Below are positions 1-4,609 of a stretch of DNA of 4,609 bases, piece after piece. The notes beneath the pieces are model-generated. The model saw only the letters and a list, made by a program, of their open reading frames with translations, was not told the DNA's origin and searched no databases. The stretch's first letter is position 1, and each line of letters opens with the position of its first letter. A program made the translations under genes and the position numbers. This stretch comes from a virus (taxonomy: Duplodnaviria > Heunggongvirae > Uroviricota > Caudoviricetes). The stretch lies in IMG/VR virus record IMGVR_UViG_2713896789_000004. One strand, given 5' to 3'.

Positions 1-234
1 AATGAAACTCTGCGTGCTGATGTTGCCGCTGGTCGTAAGCGCCTGCGGATCAACGCCACCTGTCCAGGCTCCGTGCGTGAAGCCCCCACCACCTCCGGCG
101 TGGATAATGCAACCGGCCCCCGACTGGCAGACACAGTTGAACGGGATTATTTCACCCTCAGAGAGCGGTTGATGATGATGCAGAAGCAGCTGGAAGGGGC
201 GCAGGAATATATCCGCACTCAGTGCCTGAAATAA
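1..234 (+). CDS. Rz: Rz-like i-spanin (inner-membrane spanin subunit), C-terminal part; 5' end lies upstream of the window
   Basis: Frame 1 is open from base 1 to TAA at 232-234 and translates to NETLRADVAAGRKRLRINATC...RDYFTLRERLMMMQKQLEGAQEYIRTQCLK, closely resembling the C-terminal half of lambda Rz as recalled. It also carries an embedded Rz1-like gene in the +1 frame, as in lambda. Confidence 0.8.
   Translation, partial: NETLRADVAAGRKRLRINATCPGSVREAPTTSGVDNATGPRLADTVERDYFTLRERLMMMQKQLEGAQEYIRTQCLK
2..172 (+). CDS. Rz1: Rz1-like o-spanin (outer-membrane lipoprotein spanin subunit), embedded in Rz in the +1 frame
   Basis: ATG at 2-4 to TGA at 170-172 gives MKLCVLMLPLVVSACGSTPPVQAPCVKPPPPPAWIMQPAPDWQTQLNGIISPSESG. 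This has a short hydrophobic signal peptide ending in a lipobox-like VSAC, followed by a proline-rich mature region with a PPPPP run, typical of Rz1. The true start could lie upstream of the window edge. Confidence 0.7.
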   Translation: MKLCVLMLPLVVSACGSTPPVQAPCVKPPPPPAWIMQPAPDWQTQLNGIISPSESG

Positions 235-456: not shown

Positions 457-469
457 GGGTCCTTTCCGG
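457..469 (+). other. cosQ-like element (packaging termination signal), about 18-30 bp upstream of the cosN nick
   Basis: The sequence gggtcctttccgg sits immediately upstream of cosN at the position where lambda cosQ lies, and matches my recollection of the lambda right-end sequence. Exact boundaries are approximate. Confidence 0.5.
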
Positions 470-481
470 CATATGGACCCG

Positions 482-503
482 TTACGGGGCGGCGACCTCG
501 CGG
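482..503 (+). other. cosN terminase nicking site; 12-nt cohesive end GGGCGGCGACCT at 487-498, top-strand nick between 486 and 487
   Basis: The string gttacggggcggcgacctcgcgggttttcgctatttatgaaaatttt (481-527) matches the lambda cos junction, with bases 487-527 identical to the first ~41 nt of the lambda left end (GGGCGGCGACCTCGCGGGTTTTCGCTATTTATGAAAATTTT). It lies about 190 bp upstream of the Nu1 start, as in lambda. Confidence 0.85.
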
Positions 504-538
504 GTTTTCGCTATTTATGAAAATTTTTCGGGAAAAAG

Positions 539-650
539 CATGTCAGTTCTTCTTGTTTTTAACCTATTGTTTTTAAAGAAATAATCATCAAGAAAGAAAC
601 GACATCAGAACGCTGAAAAATCTGTCTTTTTTGGCATTTCATGTCGTAAC
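539..650 (+). other. cosB-like terminase small-subunit binding region with three R-like elements (R3-like ~539-555 direct, R2-like ~597-608 inverted, R1-like ~640-650 direct) and an AT-rich, probably bent spacer (~556-596)
   Basis: Three copies of a short motif are present: catgtcag (539-546), its inverted form aaacgacatcag (597-608) and catgtcgtaac (640-650). Their direct-inverted-direct arrangement and spacing parallel lambda R3/R2/R1. The spacer at 556-596 is AT-rich, where the lambda IHF site I1 lies. The sequence diverges from lambda cosB from about base 528 onward. Confidence 0.55.
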
Positions 651-674
651 TGATTTTTGATAAGGAATTGCTGA

Positions 675-1223
675 ATGAATGTTAATAAAAAGAAGCTTGC
701 TGAAATCTTTAATGTCGATATACGCACTATTGATCGCTGGCAAACTCAGGGGCTCCCTCAGATATCTGGTGGAGGAAAAGGTGTTGAGGTCATCTTTGAT
801 TCTGCGAAGGCGATCGAATGGTATGCTCAGCGCGAAGCTGATATTGAAAATGAAAAACTCCGTAAAGAGGTCGAGGATTTGAGGGCGGCCAGCGAATCAG
901 ACCTTCAGCCCGGCACCATTGATTACGAACGTTACCGACTGACGAAGGCACAGGCAGATGCACAGGAACTGAAAAATGCCCGCGACAGTGGGCAGGTCAT
1001 TGATACAGGGTTTTGCCTTTTTGCTCTGGGAAGACTGGCACAGGAGATCTCTGCCATTCTTGACTCCATTCCATTGTCCATGCAGAGACAGTTTCCGGCA
1101 CTGACGCCCGCTATGCTTGATTTCCTGAAAACCGATATAGCAAAGGCGGCAAACCGATGCGCATCAACGGCAGAGAAGTTACCGGAGATGCTGGATGAAT
1201 ACCTCAGAGAAGCAGCTAAATAA
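675..1223 (+). CDS. nu1: Terminase small subunit (Nu1-like), 182 aa
   Basis: ORF 675-1223 has an AAGGA Shine-Dalgarno at 662-666. The protein [39 protein letters not shown]... aligns along its whole length with lambda Nu1 (MEVNKKQLADIFGASIRTIQNWQEQGMPVLRGGGKGNEV...), including the N-terminal winged-HTH region and the GGGKG motif. The central segment [48 protein letters not shown] is nearly identical to lambda. It sits about 190 bp downstream of cosN. Confidence 0.92.
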
Positions 1224-3119
1224 CTTTGCTGTTGTTTGTGGAGTGGCACTTCGTGGGCTTTTACGCCCACTGCCTGTAACCACCGTTGAATGGGCCGATC
1301 AAAATTATTATTTGCCCCCGGAGTCCTCTTATCTTGCTGGGCGGTGGAAGACGTTGCCCTTTCAGGTGGCAATAATGAACTGCATGGGTAATGACCGGAT
1401 CCGCACAATTAATCTTATAAAATCAGCTCGAGTCGGTTACACCAAAATGCTGATGGGCGTTATTGGTTACTTTATTGAGCATAAAAACCGTAACAGTCTT
1501 CTGTTTCAGCCTACGGATTCTGCCGCTGAAGATTTTATGAAGTCTCATGTGGAGTCAACATTACGGGATGTTCCCTGTCTGAAAATTCTTTCCCCCTGGC
1601 TGGGGCGTAAGCACCGGGATAACACACTGACATTAAAAAGATTCACGTCCCGTGTGGGGTTCTGGTGCCTGGGTGGTGCTGCCGCCAAAAACTACCGTGA
1701 AAAATCAGTGGATGTGGTCTGCTATGACGAACTTTCCTCATTCGAGCCGGATGTCGAAAAAGAGGGCTCGCCAACCCTGCTGGGGGATAAGCGTATTGAG
1801 GGCTCGGTATGGCCAAAATCCATTCGCGGCTCGACGCCAAAAATAAAAGGCTCCTGCCAGATCGAAAAAGCGGCCAACGAGTCGGCACATTTCATGCGTT
1901 TTTATGTGCCCTGCCCGCACTGTGGGGAGGAGCAGTATCTGAAATTTGGNNNNNNNNNNNNNNNNNNNNNNNNNNNNNNNNNNNNNNNNNNNNNNNNNNC
2001 ATGGCTGCGTGATCCATCAGTCTGAGCTTGACCAGAGCAACGGGCGGTGGATCTGTGAAAACACGGGCATGTGGACCCGTGACGGCCTGACGTTTTTCAG
2101 CGCTGCGGGTAATGAAATTCCGCCGCCGCGCTCCATCACTTTCCATATCTGGACGGCGTACAGTCCGTTCACCACCTGGGTACAGATAGTCTATGACTGG
2201 CTGGATGCNNNNNNNNNNNNNNNNNNNNNNNNNNNNNNNNNNNNNNNNNNNNNNNNNNGTGAACACCACGCTGGGCGAGACCTGGGAAGAGGCCGTGGGC
2301 GAAAAACTCGATCACCAGGTGCTGATGGATAAGGTCGTGCATTACACGGCAGCGGTGCCTGCCCGGGTGGTTTATCTGACGGCGGGCATTGACTCGCAGC
2401 GTAACCGTTTTGAGATGTATGTCTGGGGATGGGCTCCGGGAGAGGAAGCCTTTCTGGTGGATAAAATCATCATTATGGGGCGTCCTGATGAGGAAGAGAC
2501 GCTGTTACGTGTGGATGCGGCGATCAACAAAAAATACCGCCATGCAGACGGTACCGAAATGACCATTTCCCGTGTCTGCTGGGACACCGGGGGGATCGAT
2601 GGTGAAATTGTTTATCAGAGATCAAAAAAACACGGTGTTTTCCGGGTGCTGCCGGTAAAAGGCGCATCTGTCTATGGCAAGCCGGTGATCACCATGCCAA
2701 AAACCCGCAATCAGCGGGGCGTGTATCTGTGTGAAGTGGGGACGGACACCGCAAAAGAAATTCTCTATGCCCGTATGAAAGCCGATCCCACGCCTGCGGA
2801 TGAAGCCACGTCGTATGCCATCCGTTTTCCTGATGATCCGGAGATTTTTTCGCAGACAGAGGCGCAGCAACTGGTGGCGGAGGAGCTGGTGGAGAAGTGG
2901 GAAAAAGGAAAGATGCGTCTGTTGTGGGATAACAAAAAGCGGCGTAACGAAGCGCTGGACTGCCTGGTGTATGCCTACGCGGCATTACGTGTGTCTGTGC
3001 AACGCTGGCAGCTTGATCTGGCTGTACTGGCAAAATCCCGGGAAGAAGAGACGACCCGGCCAACCCTGAAAGAACTGGCAGCGAAGCTGTCCGGAGGAGT
3101 GAATGGTTACAGTCGCTGA
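1195..3119 (+). CDS. A: Terminase large subunit (gpA-like; ATPase/translocase and cos endonuclease), interrupted by two N-masked blocks (1950-1999, 2209-2258)
   Basis: Three ORF fragments (1195-2025, 1946-2332, 2193-3119) align consecutively with lambda gpA. Fragment 1 ([11 protein letters not shown]...[15 protein letters not shown]...[11 protein letters not shown]...[27 protein letters not shown]...[13 protein letters not shown]) matches lambda MNISNSQVNR...AVEWADANYYLPKE...KSARVGYSKML...[13 protein letters not shown]. Fragment 2 ([11 protein letters not shown]...[17 protein letters not shown]) and fragment 3 ([10 protein letters not shown]...YLTAGIDSQ...CWDTGGID...KGASVYGKP...[10 protein letters not shown]) follow in lambda order. 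The start at 1195 overlaps the Nu1 3' end by 29 nt, with GGAGA upstream; the stop is TGA at 3117-3119. The apparent frame changes occur only across the N runs. Confidence 0.92.
1950..1999. other. 50-nt run of N (masked or unknown sequence) inside the terminase large-subunit gene
   Basis: Bases 1950-1999 are a contiguous run of n. The reading frame before and after differs, and by alignment to lambda about 23 codons are expected here, so the N length does not equal the true sequence length. Confidence 0.95.
2209..2258. other. 50-nt run of N (masked or unknown sequence) inside the terminase large-subunit gene
   Basis: Bases 2209-2258 are a contiguous run of n. The frame shifts across the block, and by alignment to lambda only about 10 codons are expected here, so the N length is a placeholder. 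Confidence 0.95.
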
Positions 3120-3309
3120 ACTGCAGGCGCTGCGTCAGGCGCGCCTTGATTTATTAACCGGTAAACGGGTGGTGTCTGTCCAGAAAGATGGTCGCAGAAT
3201 TGAATATACGGCGGCTTCTCTGGATGAGCTTAACCGTGCGATCAATGATGCGGAGTCGGTACTGGGGACAACCCGCCGTCGCCGTCGTCCGCTGGGAGTG
3301 AGGTTATGA
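3103..3309 (+). CDS. W: Head-tail joining / head completion protein (gpW-like), 68 aa
   Basis: ORF 3103-3309 gives [68 protein letters not shown]. It has the same length as lambda gpW and aligns with it (…[24 protein letters not shown]…RRRGP…). GGAGGA lies at 3093-3098. It overlaps the gpA 3' end by 17 nt, and its stop TGA (3307-3309) overlaps the portal ATG (3306-3308). Confidence 0.88.
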   Translation: MVTVAELQALRQARLDLLTGKRVVSVQKDGRRIEYTAASLDELNRAINDAESVLGTTRRRRRPLGVRL

Positions 3310-4609
3310 AACGAACGCCTGTCCTGATTGATGTGAACGGCGTTCCGCTTCGGGAGAGTCTCAGCTACCACGGGGGCGGTGCAGGATTTGGCGGGCAAAT
3401 GGCGGAGTGGTTGCCACCGGCGCAGAGTGCCGATGCGGCCCTGCTGCCCGCGTTGCGTCTGGGGAATGCCCGTGCAGATGATCTGGTACGCAATAACGGG
3501 ATAGCGGCTAATGCGGTGGCCCTGCATAAGGATCATATTGTCGGGCATATGTTTCTTATCAGCTACCGTCCGAACTGGCGCTGGCTGGGGATGCGGGAGA
3601 CTGCGGCAAAAAGTTTTGTCGATGAGGTGGAGGCGGCCTGGTCGGAATACGCAGAAGGGATGTTTGGCGAGATCGACGTGGAAGGGAAACGCACGTTCAC
3701 GGAATTTATCCGTGAAGGTGTGGGCGTTCATGCCTTTAACGGCGAAATCTTTGTGCAGCCGGTCTGGGATACGGAAACCACGCAGTTATTCCGCACGCGT
3801 TTTAAAGCCGTGAGTCCGAAACGGGTGGACACGCCAGGACACGGTATCGGGAATCGTTTTCTGCGGGCCGGGGTGGAGGTCGATCGATATGGCCGTGCCG
3901 TTGCGTACCATATCTGTGAGGATGATTTTCCTCGCTCCTGGAGTGGACGATGGGAACGGATCCCGCGTGAACTTCCCACCGGGCGTCCGGCCATGCTGCA
4001 TATTTTCGAGCCGGTGGAGGACGGGCAGACCCGTGGGGCCAATCAGTTTTACAGCGTTATGGAACGGCTGAAGATGCTGGATTCCCTGCAGGCAACACAG
4101 CTTCAGTCGGCCATTGTTAAAGCCATGTATGCAGCGACGATTGAAAGTGAACTTGATACCGAAAAGGCCTTTGAATATATCGCGGGGGCACCGCAGGGTC
4201 AGCAGGATAATCCGCTTATTAATATTCTGGAGAAGTTCTCCAGCTGGTATGACACGAATCATGTGACGCTGGGCGGTGTCAAAATTCCGCACCTTTTCCC
4301 CGGGGATGATCTGAAACTGCAGACCGCGCAGGATTCAGACAATGGATTTTCGGCGCTTGAACAGGCGCTGCTGCGGTATATCGCCGCCGGTCTTGGCGTT
4401 TCCTACGAACAGTTGTCCCGTGATTACTCGAAGGTCAGTTATTCAAGTGCCCGCGCCTCCGCCAATGAGTCGTGGCGCTATTTTATGGGACGACGAAAAT
4501 TTATTGCAGCCCGGCTGGCCACGCAGATGTTTTCCTGCTGGCTGGAAGAGGCACTTCTTCGGGGGATTATCCGTCCGCCACGGGCACGTTTTGATTTTTA
4601 TCAGGCGCG
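3306..4609 (+). CDS. B: Portal protein (gpB-like), N-terminal ~434 aa; gene continues beyond the 3' end of the window
   Basis: ATG at 3306 opens a frame that stays open to the window end. The translation MKRTPVLIDVNGVPLRESLSYHGGGAGFGGQMAEWLPPAQSADAALLPALRLGNARADDLVRNNGIAANAVALHKDHIVGHMFLISYRPNWRWLGMRETAAKSFVDEVEAAW... matches the lambda gpB N-terminus almost residue for residue as recalled. Gene order Nu1-A-W-B is canonical. It is absent from the ORF track only because no stop occurs within the window. Confidence 0.92.
   Translation, partial: MKRTPVLIDVNGVPLRESLSYHGGGAGFGGQMAEWLPPAQSADAALLPALRLGNARADDLVRNNGIAANAVALHKDHIVGHMFLISYRPNWRWLGMRETAAKSFVDEVEAAWSEYAEGMFGEIDVEGKRTFTEFIREGVGVHAFNGEIFVQPVWDTETTQLFRTRFKAVSPKRVDTPGHGIGNRFLRAGVEVDRYGRAVAYHICEDDFPRSWSGRWERIPRELPTGRPAMLHIFEPVEDGQTRGANQFYSVMERLKMLDSLQATQLQSAIVKAMYAATIESELDTEKAFEYIAGAPQGQQDNPLINILEKFSSWYDTNHVTLGGVKIPHLFPGDDLKLQTAQDSDNGFSALEQALLRYIAAGLGVSYEQLSRDYSKVSYSSARASANESWRYFMGRRKFIAARLATQMFSCWLEEALLRGIIRPPRARFDFYQA

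What the first reader, a model, noticed from the sequence alone, without database searches (positions are those of the whole stretch)
528..800. Lambda-identical cosN paired with divergent cosB and a divergent Nu1 DNA-binding domain, suggesting an altered packaging-specificity module
Bases 487-527 match the lambda left end exactly, but from about 528 the cosB region diverges. It still keeps three R-like elements in the lambda arrangement (direct, inverted, direct) with a different core motif, catgtc[a/g][g/t]. In parallel, the Nu1 N-terminal winged-HTH region that reads cosB differs substantially from lambda ([19 protein letters not shown] versus GASIRTIQNWQEQGMPVLR), while the rest of Nu1 is highly conserved. 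Co-variation of cosB R elements with the small-subunit recognition helix is how the lambda and phage 21 packaging specificities differ, so this looks like a third specificity or a 21-like one.
Basis: partly seen in the sequence, partly recalled or inferred. Interest (0 to 1): 0.45.

Follow-up and report, generated by a model that had tools for sequence, protein, structure and literature searches.

The report
Phage-21-type cos site, variant recognition contact
This is an ordinary lambda-family DNA-packaging start site and its small terminase subunit, of the phage-21 recognition type rather than the lambda type; it is unusual only in carrying a variant amino acid and a variant base at positions published as controlling which DNA gets packaged.

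Summary
Bases 487-527 equal lambda bp 1-41. Three R-like elements lie at 536-551 (+), 594-609 (-) and 637-652 (+), within 1 bp of phage 21's annotated R3/R2/R1. The window's only IHF-like match (560-572) sits at the I1 position. The Nu1-like TerS has a non-lambda recognition helix.

Two corrections. The rest of TerS is not highly conserved: its C-terminal 42 residues are its most divergent part. From about 1650 rightwards the window is 95-100% identical to the phage 21 head operon.

The module belongs to the phage 21 recognition lineage but is not identical. Published specificity determinants are TerS residues 20 and 24 and R3 bp 56 and 59.
- Lambda: Q20/E24, T56/C59.
- Phage 21: E20/S24, G56/G59.
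- Window: D20/T24, G56/A59.

D20 pairs with A59 on three different TerS bodies, and cosB plus TerS residues 1-45 move together as a cassette. One satellite lineage (107 contigs) pairs a genuine phage 21 DNA-binding domain with this cosB. That argues against a fully separate specificity.

Verdict: a new member of a known kind, present on at least 1000 E. coli contigs and in phage PhiR5_1. A distinct specificity is possible (about 0.25) but unproven.

The parts
457..463 (+). cosQ heptamer GGGTCCT, inside the 12-mer CGGGTCCTTTCC (456-467) that phage 21's record annotates as R4
   Evidence: The 12-mer is identical to M81255 136-147, and the GGGTCCTTTCCG core is also present in lambda's right end. 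That this heptamer is cosQ, at lambda 48473-48479, rests on my own knowledge.
487..498 (+). cosN cohesive-end sequence GGGCGGCGACCT. The nicks are inferred to lie before 487 on the top strand and after 498 on the bottom strand.
   Evidence: Identical to the lambda, phage 21 and phi80 cohesive ends. 487-527 equals lambda bp 1-41.
504..535 (.). AT-rich I2 spacer between cosN and cosB (bp 18-49)
   Evidence: Contains the anchor TATTTATGAAAATTTT, conserved in almost all related cos sites. The extent of I2 (about bp 18-50) is taken from PMC4856287.
536..551 (+). R3, AAGCATGTCAGTTCTT (bp 50-65, core 539-546). bp 56 is G (window 542) and bp 59 is A (window 545).
   Evidence: Same distance from cosN as the R3 of lambda and phage 21. 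Within the class only bp 54 varies.
558..572 (+). I1, the predicted IHF bending site between R3 and R2
   Evidence: The only YAANNNNTTGWTW match in the window is at 560-572. It is at the same position as phage 21's annotated I1 (bp 72-86). Within the class, variation falls in the NNNN positions.
594..609 (-). R2, TCTGATGTCGTTTCTT on the minus strand (core 599-606)
   Evidence: Aligns with phage 21's annotated R2 and is inverted relative to R3 and R1.
637..652 (+). R1, TTTCATGTCGTAACTG (core 640-647)
   Evidence: Aligns with phage 21's annotated R1 and is invariant within the class.
675..1223 (+). TerS (Nu1 family, 182 aa). The DNA-binding domain is residues 1-45 (675-809). The recognition helix is residues 17-24 (723-746), with D20 at 732-734 and T24 at 744-746. 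The C-terminal TerL-binding part is about residues 141-182 (1095-1220).
   Evidence: Pfam Phage_Nu1, E = 1e-81. Gapless match to the lambda and phage 21 DNA-binding-domain structures 1J9I and 7LWR. Helix limits are from PMC9026076. 100% identical to PhiR5_1 Nu1.
1195..3119 (+). TerL (gpA family), interrupted by masked N runs at 1950-1999 and 2209-2258. Residues 1-48 (1195-1338) are the TerS-binding end.
   Evidence: GpA_ATPase and GpA_nuclease domains, found on the N-free PhiR5_1 copy. Residues 1-48 are 42% identical to phage 21 and 50% to lambda; residues 301-642 are 98-100% identical to phage 21.
1640..1700 (.). Approximate mosaic joint. To its right the window carries the phage 21 head-operon allele.
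   Evidence: Sliding nucleotide identity to M81255 rises from 70-78% to 86-99% here and stays at 91-100% to the end of the window, apart from the two sliding windows that overlap the first masked N run.

Best explanation
Bases 457-1223 are the working packaging-initiation module of a lambda-family cos phage.

Inferred mechanism, by homology with lambda and phage 21:
- TerS dimers bind R3 and R2 through their winged helix-turn-helix recognition helices, across a hairpin made by IHF bound at I1. R1 acts as an accessory site.
- This anchors TerL, which is held by the TerS C-terminus, so that it nicks the lambda-identical cosN 12 bases apart.
- cosQ serves termination of packaging.

The recognition part, cosB plus TerS residues 1-45, is a cassette of the phage 21 lineage, so it should not be packaged by lambda-type terminase. 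It carries a derived pair, Asp20 with an A at R3 bp 59, where phage 21 has Glu20 with G.

My best reading is that this is a close sub-variant of the phage 21 specificity with overlapping, possibly asymmetric, recognition. I do not think it is a fully orthogonal third specificity.

Shown here: the anatomy, the homology, the cassette behaviour, and conservation of the elements. Inferred: binding, bending, nicking, and the degree of discrimination against phage 21.
For: Architecture:
- cosQ, cosN, R3, I1, R2 and R1 all sit within 1 bp of phage 21's annotated positions.

Family membership:
- TerS matches Pfam Phage_Nu1 at E = 1e-81. Residues 1-62 align without gaps to the solved lambda DNA-binding domain and residues 1-54 to that of phage 21.
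- TerL has the gpA ATPase and nuclease domains.

Function:
- The module is 99.2% identical to phage PhiR5_1, whose record lists E. coli C as host.
- The exact TerS protein is on at least 1000 contigs.
- Within the class, the R and I1 elements vary at 7 of 63 columns against 29 of 85 for the spacers (Fisher p = 0.0017).

Lineage, from 93 unique combinations of cosB and TerS N-terminus:
- Q20 goes with CGTTTCCG (lambda, phi80).
- E20 goes with C[A/G]TGTCGG (phage 21 type, 37 unique sequences, of which 36 have this R3).
- T20 goes with CAGATCCG (Gifsy-1 type).
- D20 goes with C[A/G]TGTCAG (this class, 8 unique sequences).

Cassette behaviour:
- L051 and L052 share TerS residues 46-182 with the window at 98-100% identity, but carry a Gifsy-type helix and a Gifsy-type cosB.
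- L208 shares residues 1-100 and the cosB type, but has a different C-terminus (55% identity) and a different cohesive end.
- L240, a 194-aa satellite TerS, has D20/M24 and again A59.

Reverse test:
- Every genuine cos site with a non-G at bp 59 of a 21-type R3 encodes D20: 7 of 7 in IMG/VR and 2 of 2 in metagenomes.

Literature:
- Residues 20 and 24 and bp 56 and 59 are the lambda/21 specificity determinants. E24 contacts bp 56, with the C-terminal end of the helix towards the 5' end of R3 (PMC4669245, PMC9026076). That geometry places residue 20 near bp 59, which is my inference.

Overlap with phage 21:
- The changes are conservative (E to D, S to T). T24, M24 and D24 occur naturally with G56.
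- A satellite TerS whose residues 1-100 are 96-98% identical to phage 21 gp1 sits behind this same cosB on 107 contigs.
Against: - No binding or packaging data exist for this module.
- bp 59 is invariant G in 36 unique E20-class sequences and invariant A in the D20 class, while neighbouring bp 54 varies in both classes. This suggests each helix selects its own base at 59, which favours real discrimination.
- The D20-A59 association may reflect one evolutionary origin plus tight linkage. The codon and the base are about 190 bp apart.
- Whether the satellite carrying the phage 21 domain is mobile, and whether its own TerS or a helper's TerS reads its cosB, is unknown.
- The primary genetics paper (Sippy et al. 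2015, Virology 476:115) could not be read here. The residue 20 to bp 59 contact is therefore my geometric inference, not a cited result.
Confidence: 0.6

Rival explanations
1. It is a genuinely separate packaging specificity. The Asp20 to A-T59 contact replaces Glu20 to G-C59. Phage 21 terminase would therefore package this DNA poorly and this terminase would package phage 21 DNA poorly, insulating the phage from co-resident 21-type prophages.
For: - The differences fall exactly on a published determinant residue and a published determinant base pair (PMC4669245).
- D20 pairs with A59 on three different TerS bodies.
- bp 59 is invariant within each class while bp 54 varies.
- All 9 genuine non-G59 sites found by pattern scans encode D20.
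- R3 also differs from phage 21 at bp 62, which lies inside the bp 55-63 contact zone defined by NMR (PMC9026076).
Against: - A genuine phage 21 DNA-binding domain (E20/S24) is paired with this cosB in a satellite lineage on 107 contigs.
- R2 and R1 of this class keep G at the bp 59 equivalent.
- The substitutions are conservative.
- The association can be explained by linkage from a single origin.
Confidence: 0.25
2. It has exactly the same specificity as phage 21, and the sequence differences are neutral drift within the tolerance of the 21-type contact.
For: - The helix backbone RTIxRWQxQG and the core TGTC are shared with phage 21, and the spacing and I1 are the same.
- The satellite pairs a phage 21 domain with this cosB.
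- Residue 24 varies freely among E20-class members (S, T, M, V, D) with unchanged G56.
Against: If bp 59 and residue 20 were neutral, mixed combinations should be common. None was seen in IMG/VR or the metagenomes. E20 sequences never showed A59 apart from the satellite lineage.
Confidence: 0.3
3. Lambda packaging specificity is retained despite the sequence changes.
For: - cosN and I2 are lambda-identical through bp 41.
- The right half of R3, GTTCTTCTT (bp 60-68), is identical to lambda's.
Against: - Both determinant residues (D20/T24 against Q20/E24) and both determinant base pairs (G56/A59 against T56/C59) differ from lambda.
- Lambda E24 is reported to clash with G-C at bp 56 (PMC4669245).
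- Many natural 21-class sites also have a lambda-identical cosN.
Confidence: 0.03
4. It is a decaying prophage remnant whose cosB is no longer under selection.
For: The window comes from an unidentified source, and its TerL is interrupted by N runs.
Against: - The N runs look like masking rather than mutation. PhiR5_1, 99.2% identical, has an intact TerL.
- All ORFs are intact.
- The elements are conserved relative to the spacers.
- PhiR5_1's record lists E. coli C as host.
Confidence: 0.03

Closest known systems
Phage 21 cosB with gp1 (TerS), the '21 packaging specificity' (M81255; DNA-binding-domain structure PDB 7LWR)
   Same: - The order cosQ-cosN-I2-R3-I1-R2(inverted)-R1 is the same, with positions within 1 bp.
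- The R core is [C/G]ATGTC.
- The helix framework RTIxRWQxQG with R21 is shared, and bp 56 is G.
- TerL residues 49-642, W and the portal are the phage 21 alleles at 90-100% amino-acid identity.
   Different: - D20/T24/I16 replace E20/S24/P16.
- R3 has A59 and T62 where phage 21 has G59 and A62. R2 and R1 have TCGT where phage 21 has TCGG.
- TerS overall is only 64% identical. The C-terminal 42 residues are 36% identical and TerL residues 1-48 are 42% identical, so the TerS-TerL interface is a different allele.
Lambda cosB with gpNu1 (PDB 1J9I, 7LW0); phi80 and 434 share this specificity
   Same: - The cohesive end and bp 1-41 are identical.
- The tripartite cosB with I1 is the same, and R3 bp 60-68 is GTTCTTCTT in both.
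- G60 in R3 against T60 in R2 and R1, as in lambda.
- Same protein families.
   Different: - The recognition helix is Q20/N21/E24 in lambda against D20/R21/T24 here.
- The R core is CGTTTCC in lambda against CATGTC[A/G] here.
- TerS is 62% and TerL 65% identical.
Gifsy-1 type TerS and cosB (PDB 7LXS is the Gifsy-1 DNA-binding domain)
   Same: - Tripartite cosB with the same right half of R3.
- In L051 and L052 a Gifsy-type cassette sits on a TerS body 98-100% identical to the window's.
   Different: The helix is VRT[I/V]T[A/G/T]WQSQG (T20/S24), and the R core is CAGATCC.
N15 TerS and its simple cosB
   Same: Lambda-like cohesive end and a Nu1-family TerS.
   Different: N15 has a single R3 and no I1, R2 or R1 (PMC4669245). 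Its TerS is only 36% identical by tblastn, about 40% in the MAFFT alignment.

Membership tests
Lambda-like cos packaging module with complex (tripartite) cosB | 12-base 5' cohesive-end sequence related to lambda's, flanked by the conserved cosN bases | tested here: met
   487-498 is GGGCGGCGACCT, and 481-527 is identical to lambda. Actual nicking cannot be tested with these tools.
Lambda-like cos packaging module with complex (tripartite) cosB | cosQ heptamer upstream of cosN | tested here: met
   GGGTCCT at 457-463, at the same distance from cosN as in lambda and phage 21.
Lambda-like cos packaging module with complex (tripartite) cosB | Three R elements, with R2 inverted relative to R3 and R1, and R3 at about bp 50-65 | tested here: met
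   R3 at 536-551 (+), R2 at 594-609 (-) and R1 at 637-652 (+).
Lambda-like cos packaging module with complex (tripartite) cosB | IHF site I1 between R3 and R2 | tested here: met
   The single consensus-like match in the window is at 560-572, aligned with phage 21's annotated I1. IHF binding itself was not tested.
Lambda-like cos packaging module with complex (tripartite) cosB | Nu1-family TerS with an N-terminal winged helix-turn-helix, followed by a gpA-family TerL | tested here: met
   PF07471 at E = 1e-81, plus PF05876 and PF20454. PDB 1J9I, 7LWR, 7LW0 and 6HN7 all match.
Phage 21 packaging specificity | TerS recognition-helix residues E20 and S24 | tested here: not met
   The window has D20 and T24. 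T24 occurs naturally with 21-type R3; D20 does not.
Phage 21 packaging specificity | R3 bp 56 is G-C | tested here: met
   Window base 542 is G.
Phage 21 packaging specificity | R3 bp 59 is G-C | tested here: not met
   Window base 545 is A. All 36 unique E20-class phage sequences have G.
Phage 21 packaging specificity | DNA is packaged by phage 21 terminase and excluded by lambda terminase (more than 1000-fold) | not testable with these tools
   Needs helper-packaging assays. The only indirect hint is the satellite that pairs a phage 21 domain with this cosB.
Lambda packaging specificity | Q20/E24 helix with T56/C59 in R3 | tested here: not met
   All four positions differ.

The most novel reading that the evidence does not exclude
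The D20/T24 helix together with the CATGTCAG R3 defines an additional natural packaging specificity among lambda-like phages, alongside lambda, phage 21 and N15. It would have been created from the phage 21 type essentially by re-pairing one contact, residue 20 with bp 59. It spreads as a cassette of roughly 320 bp (cosB plus TerS residues 1-45) between different terminase bodies and satellites.
Probability: 0.25. Interest if true: 0.5.

Novelty: new member of a known kind. Interest (0 to 1): 0.3.

Why it matters
Only three packaging specificities (lambda, phage 21, N15) are documented among lambda-like cos phages (PMC4669245). The rules by which the TerS helix reads the R sites rest on a few mutants.

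This module is a common natural allele. It differs from phage 21 at one determinant residue and one determinant base pair, and its R3 differs from lambda's only at bp 54, 56 and 59. That makes it a ready-made natural test of the proposed residue 20 to bp 59 contact, and of how new specificities arise in small steps.

It also bears on which prophages and TerS-encoding satellites in the same E. coli cell can package each other's DNA. If it simply behaves like phage 21, it is an ordinary variant.

Tried and rejected
- The primary genetics paper (Sippy et al. 2015) could not be retrieved by PMC id or PubMed id. The determinants are therefore cited second-hand from PMC4669245 and PMC9026076.
- A search for a paper describing PhiR5_1 found only a preprint that uses the PhiR phage panel. 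It says nothing about packaging.
- The generic repeat finder did not detect the R elements because they are too short. They were located by motif search and by alignment to phage 21's annotation instead.
- The promoter and terminator scan and the Rfam search found nothing relevant in or near cosB.
- I first treated the GF60 hybrid (phage 21 domain with this cosB) as a singleton, because only 1 of 5426 complete genomes has it. I dropped that view when the exact protein turned up on 107 contigs with the same cosB in the three places whose DNA was read.
- 15 of the 17 metagenome pattern hits were chance matches with no cos context.
- I did not predict a structure. The alignment to the solved lambda and phage 21 domains is gapless, and a model without DNA could not address specificity.
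- I considered that R2 might really be a lambda-type R in a shifted register, because CGTTTC-TTTCTT resembles lambda's CGTTTCCTTTCTT. I rejected this as the primary reading because the 21-type register matches the R2 position in all relatives.

Full report
WHAT IS IN THE WINDOW

The window runs from the end of the lysis genes (Rz and the embedded Rz1, 1-234) through a cos site. It then continues into TerS (675-1223), TerL (1195-3119, with two masked N runs), a W-like head-tail joining protein (3103-3309) and the start of the portal gene (3306 onwards). Positions 400-1230 are 99.2% identical to Escherichia phage PhiR5_1 (PV340545), whose Nu1 protein is 100% identical. The PhiR5_1 record lists E. 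coli C as host. The PhiR phages are a panel of lambda-like phages used in spotting assays. The exact TerS sequence is on at least 1000 contigs, all named E. coli. About 18 of 5426 complete E. coli genomes carry this cosB type.

CHECKING THE OBSERVATION

- Window 487-527 equals lambda bp 1-41, and the first mismatch is at bp 42.
- Numbering from the cohesive end, R3 occupies bp 50-65 (536-551), R2 bp 108-123 on the minus strand (594-609) and R1 bp 151-166 (637-652). Phage 21's annotated R boxes lie at bp 50-65, 107-122 and 150-165.
- The motif ATGTCRK occurs four times in 4.6 kb, against 1.89 expected, and three of the four are inside cosB.
- The only match in the window to an IHF-like pattern (YAANNNNTTGWTW) is at 560-572, which is the position of phage 21's annotated I1.
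- cosQ (GGGTCCT, 457-463) and the surrounding 12-mer are identical to those of phage 21, and the GGGTCCTTTCCG core is also identical in lambda.

Two details are wrong. R2 begins GATGTC, not CATGTC. The statement that the rest of Nu1 is highly conserved also fails: identity to lambda is 62.5% for residues 1-40, 77% for 41-100, 60% for 101-140 and only 41.5% for 141-182.

SURROUNDINGS: A MOSAIC

From about 1650-1700 to the end, the window is 91-100% identical at nucleotide level to the phage 21 head operon M81255, apart from the two sliding windows that overlap the first masked N run. At protein level, identity to phage 21 is 90% for TerL residues 49-300, 98-100% for residues 301-642, 98.5% for W and 98.4% for the portal.

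To the left of that joint, the DNA is a third allele, 44-79% identical to both lambda and phage 21. This stretch covers cosB, all of TerS and roughly the first 150 codons of TerL. TerL residues 1-48 bind the TerS C-terminus in lambda (established knowledge from lambda-21 hybrids). Here they are 42% identical to phage 21 and 50% to lambda.

The divergent block is therefore a coherent unit of cosB, TerS and the TerS-binding end of TerL, set in a phage 21 head-gene background and not a lambda one.

WHICH RECOGNITION TYPE

The literature names TerS residues 20 and 24 and R3 bp 56 and 59 as the determinants that separate lambda from phage 21. It places E24 on bp 56, with the C-terminal end of the helix towards the 5' end of R3 (PMC4669245, PMC9026076, both citing Sippy et al. 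2015, which I could not read).

| Type | Residue 20 / 24 | bp 56 / 59 |
|---|---|---|
| Lambda | Q / E | T / C |
| Phage 21 | E / S | G / G |
| Window | D / T | G / A |

I collected about 200 related loci from GTDB genomes, IMG/VR, complete E. coli genomes and phage records. I anchored each on the conserved TATTTATGAAAATTTT. Among 93 unique combinations of cosB and TerS N-terminus, the helix and R3 sort into classes:
- Q20 with CGTTTCCG (lambda and phi80 types).
- E20, with S, T or M at residue 24, with C[A/G]TGTCGGTACT (phage 21 type). Of 37 unique E20 sequences, 36 have this R3; the exception is the satellite described below.
- T20/S24 with CAGATCCG. PDB 7LXS identifies this as the Gifsy-1 type.
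- D20/T24 with C[A/G]TGTCAGTTCT, the window's class, with 8 unique sequences.

The window's nearest helix relative is [15 protein letters not shown] (L135, L210), which carries a normal 21-type R3. Relative to that relative, the distinctive changes in the helix and R3 are I16 and D20 in the protein and A59 and T62 in R3.

IS THE PAIRING MORE THAN SHARED ANCESTRY?

Evidence that it is:
- L208 (E. coli STEC316) keeps D20/T24 and CGTGTCAGTTCTT. Yet it has a different cohesive end, 16% divergence in cosB and a TerS C-terminus only 55% identical to the window's.
- L240, a satellite-like island with a 194-aa TerS, has D20 with M24 and again A59. Its apparent recombination joint lies right after residue 23.
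- Conversely, L051 and L052 have a TerS body 98-100% identical to the window's from residue 46 onwards, but carry a Gifsy-type helix and a Gifsy-type cosB. So cosB plus the first 45 codons travel together as a cassette.
- Pattern scans for any non-G at bp 59 of a 21-type R3 found only D20 loci: 7 of 7 in IMG/VR and 2 of 2 genuine sites in metagenomes.
- Within the class, the R and I1 elements are conserved relative to the spacers: 7 of 63 columns vary against 29 of 85 (p = 0.0017). The one variable R position is bp 54, which also varies in the lambda and phage 21 classes.

The counter-example: a PICI-like satellite, first seen in E. coli GF60, has the gene order int, alpA, helicase, SSB, PerC, major capsid, decoration protein, cos, 194-aa TerS. 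Residues 1-100 of its TerS are 96-98% identical to phage 21 gp1, including E20/S24. Its cosB is nevertheless the window type, with A59. The exact protein is on 107 contigs, with the same cosB in the three places whose DNA was read. If this satellite's TerS reads its own cosB, then the phage 21 helix tolerates this cosB.

MECHANISM AND VERDICT

The anatomy supports the standard lambda/phage 21 mechanism. A TerS dimer sits on R3 and R2 across an IHF-bent I1, R1 is accessory, TerL is anchored to nick cosN, and cosQ serves termination. All of this is inferred by homology; nothing was measured here.

The recognition cassette is of the phage 21 lineage and should exclude lambda terminase. Relative to phage 21 it carries a matched change at a determinant residue and a determinant base pair.

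One possible rationale is speculative and rests on general protein-DNA chemistry. An acidic side chain accepts a hydrogen bond from the cytosine N4 of a G-C pair or from the adenine N6 of an A-T pair. These groups sit at different places in the major groove, which a shorter Asp versus a longer Glu could match.

Given the conservative substitutions and the satellite counter-example, I judge overlapping recognition with phage 21 more likely than full orthogonality. My probability for a truly separate specificity is about 0.25.

NOVELTY

The architecture, families and logic are those of lambda and phage 21, so this is a new member of a known kind. The D20/A59 allele is not mentioned in the papers I could read. 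It offers a direct, inexpensive experimental test of the residue 20 to bp 59 contact.

Noticed in passing
window 1640-4609: Right of a mosaic joint at about 1650-1700, the window is 91-100% identical in nucleotide sequence to the phage 21 head operon M81255, apart from the stretch overlapping the first masked N run. This covers TerL residues 49-642, gp3/W and the gp4 portal. The phage is a phage 21 head-gene phage with a replaced block of cos, TerS and the TerL N-terminus.
   Followed up: yes
window 1095-1338: The TerS C-terminal 42 residues (36% identical to phage 21, 41.5% to lambda) and TerL residues 1-48 (42% and 50%) form a third allele of the TerS-TerL interface. This is the most divergent protein part of the module.
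   Followed up: partly
window 1950-1999 and 2209-2258: Two 50-base N runs interrupt the TerL reading frame. They look like masking rather than biology, because PhiR5_1 has an intact 642-aa TerL.
   Followed up: partly
L212 (NZ_CP172185.1 2567659-2577935); L245-L247: A PICI-like satellite of about 10 kb lies between roxA and phoQ. Its gene order is int, alpA, Icd-like, RepA helicase, SSB, PerC, major capsid, head decoration, cos, 194-aa TerS. TerS residues 1-100 are 96-98% identical to phage 21 gp1, but its cosB is the window type (A59) and its cohesive end is GGGCGTCGACCT. The exact TerS is on 107 contigs.
   Followed up: partly
L240 (GCA_003721875.1 RJDN01000007.1), TerS at 6001-6585: Another satellite-like island (DUF927 primase, SSB, ProQ, PerC). 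Its 194-aa TerS has the helix ISTIDRWQMQG (S17, D20, M24) behind an A59-type cosB. It looks like a recombinant joined right after residue 23.
   Followed up: partly
L051, L052 (IMG/VR); L007, L089, L200, L203: A Gifsy-1-type cassette, with helix VRTIT[A/G]WQSQG and R core CAGATCC, occurs in E. coli prophages. In L051 and L052 it sits on a TerS body 98-100% identical to the window's from residue 46 onwards. PDB 7LXS is the Gifsy-1 DNA-binding domain.
   Followed up: partly
L241-L243; L244; proteins P0004, P0009, P0079: Further natural helix alleles exist. S20/N24 (VRTISTWQNQG) goes with a CAGATCC R3 in 194-aa satellite TerS. E20/D24 (LRTIERWQDQG) goes with CATGTCGG. T20/N24, T20/G24 and Q20/A24 were seen only as proteins. 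Helix diversity is wider than the three documented specificities.
   Followed up: partly
L019-L021, L023-L027, L030, L034-L038, L040-L042, L045, L046: Assemblies of non-enteric organisms (Kitasatospora, Paenibacillus, Bradyrhizobium, Psychrobacter, Limosilactobacillus and others) hold short contigs carrying a lambda-type nu1; where the upstream cosB DNA was read (L019, L020, L023, L026, L045) it is essentially lambda's. This is most likely lambda DNA contamination of those assemblies.
   Followed up: no
window 590-609: The R2 region also reads as a lambda-like R core in a register shifted by 5 bases: CGTTTC-TTTCTT against lambda's CGTTTCCTTTCTT, one base shorter. This may be a trace of common ancestry of the R types or a coincidence.
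   Followed up: no
window 2-234: The left end carries the tail of an Rz-like spanin gene, ending at 234. A complete Rz1-like lipoprotein ORF is embedded in another frame (2-172, MKLCVLMLPLVVSACGS..., proline-rich).
   Followed up: no
window 549-563 and 681-695: A 15-nt inverted repeat, 87% complementary, links the R3/I1 boundary with TerS codons 3-7. Both arms are A/T-rich, so it is probably chance.
   Followed up: no
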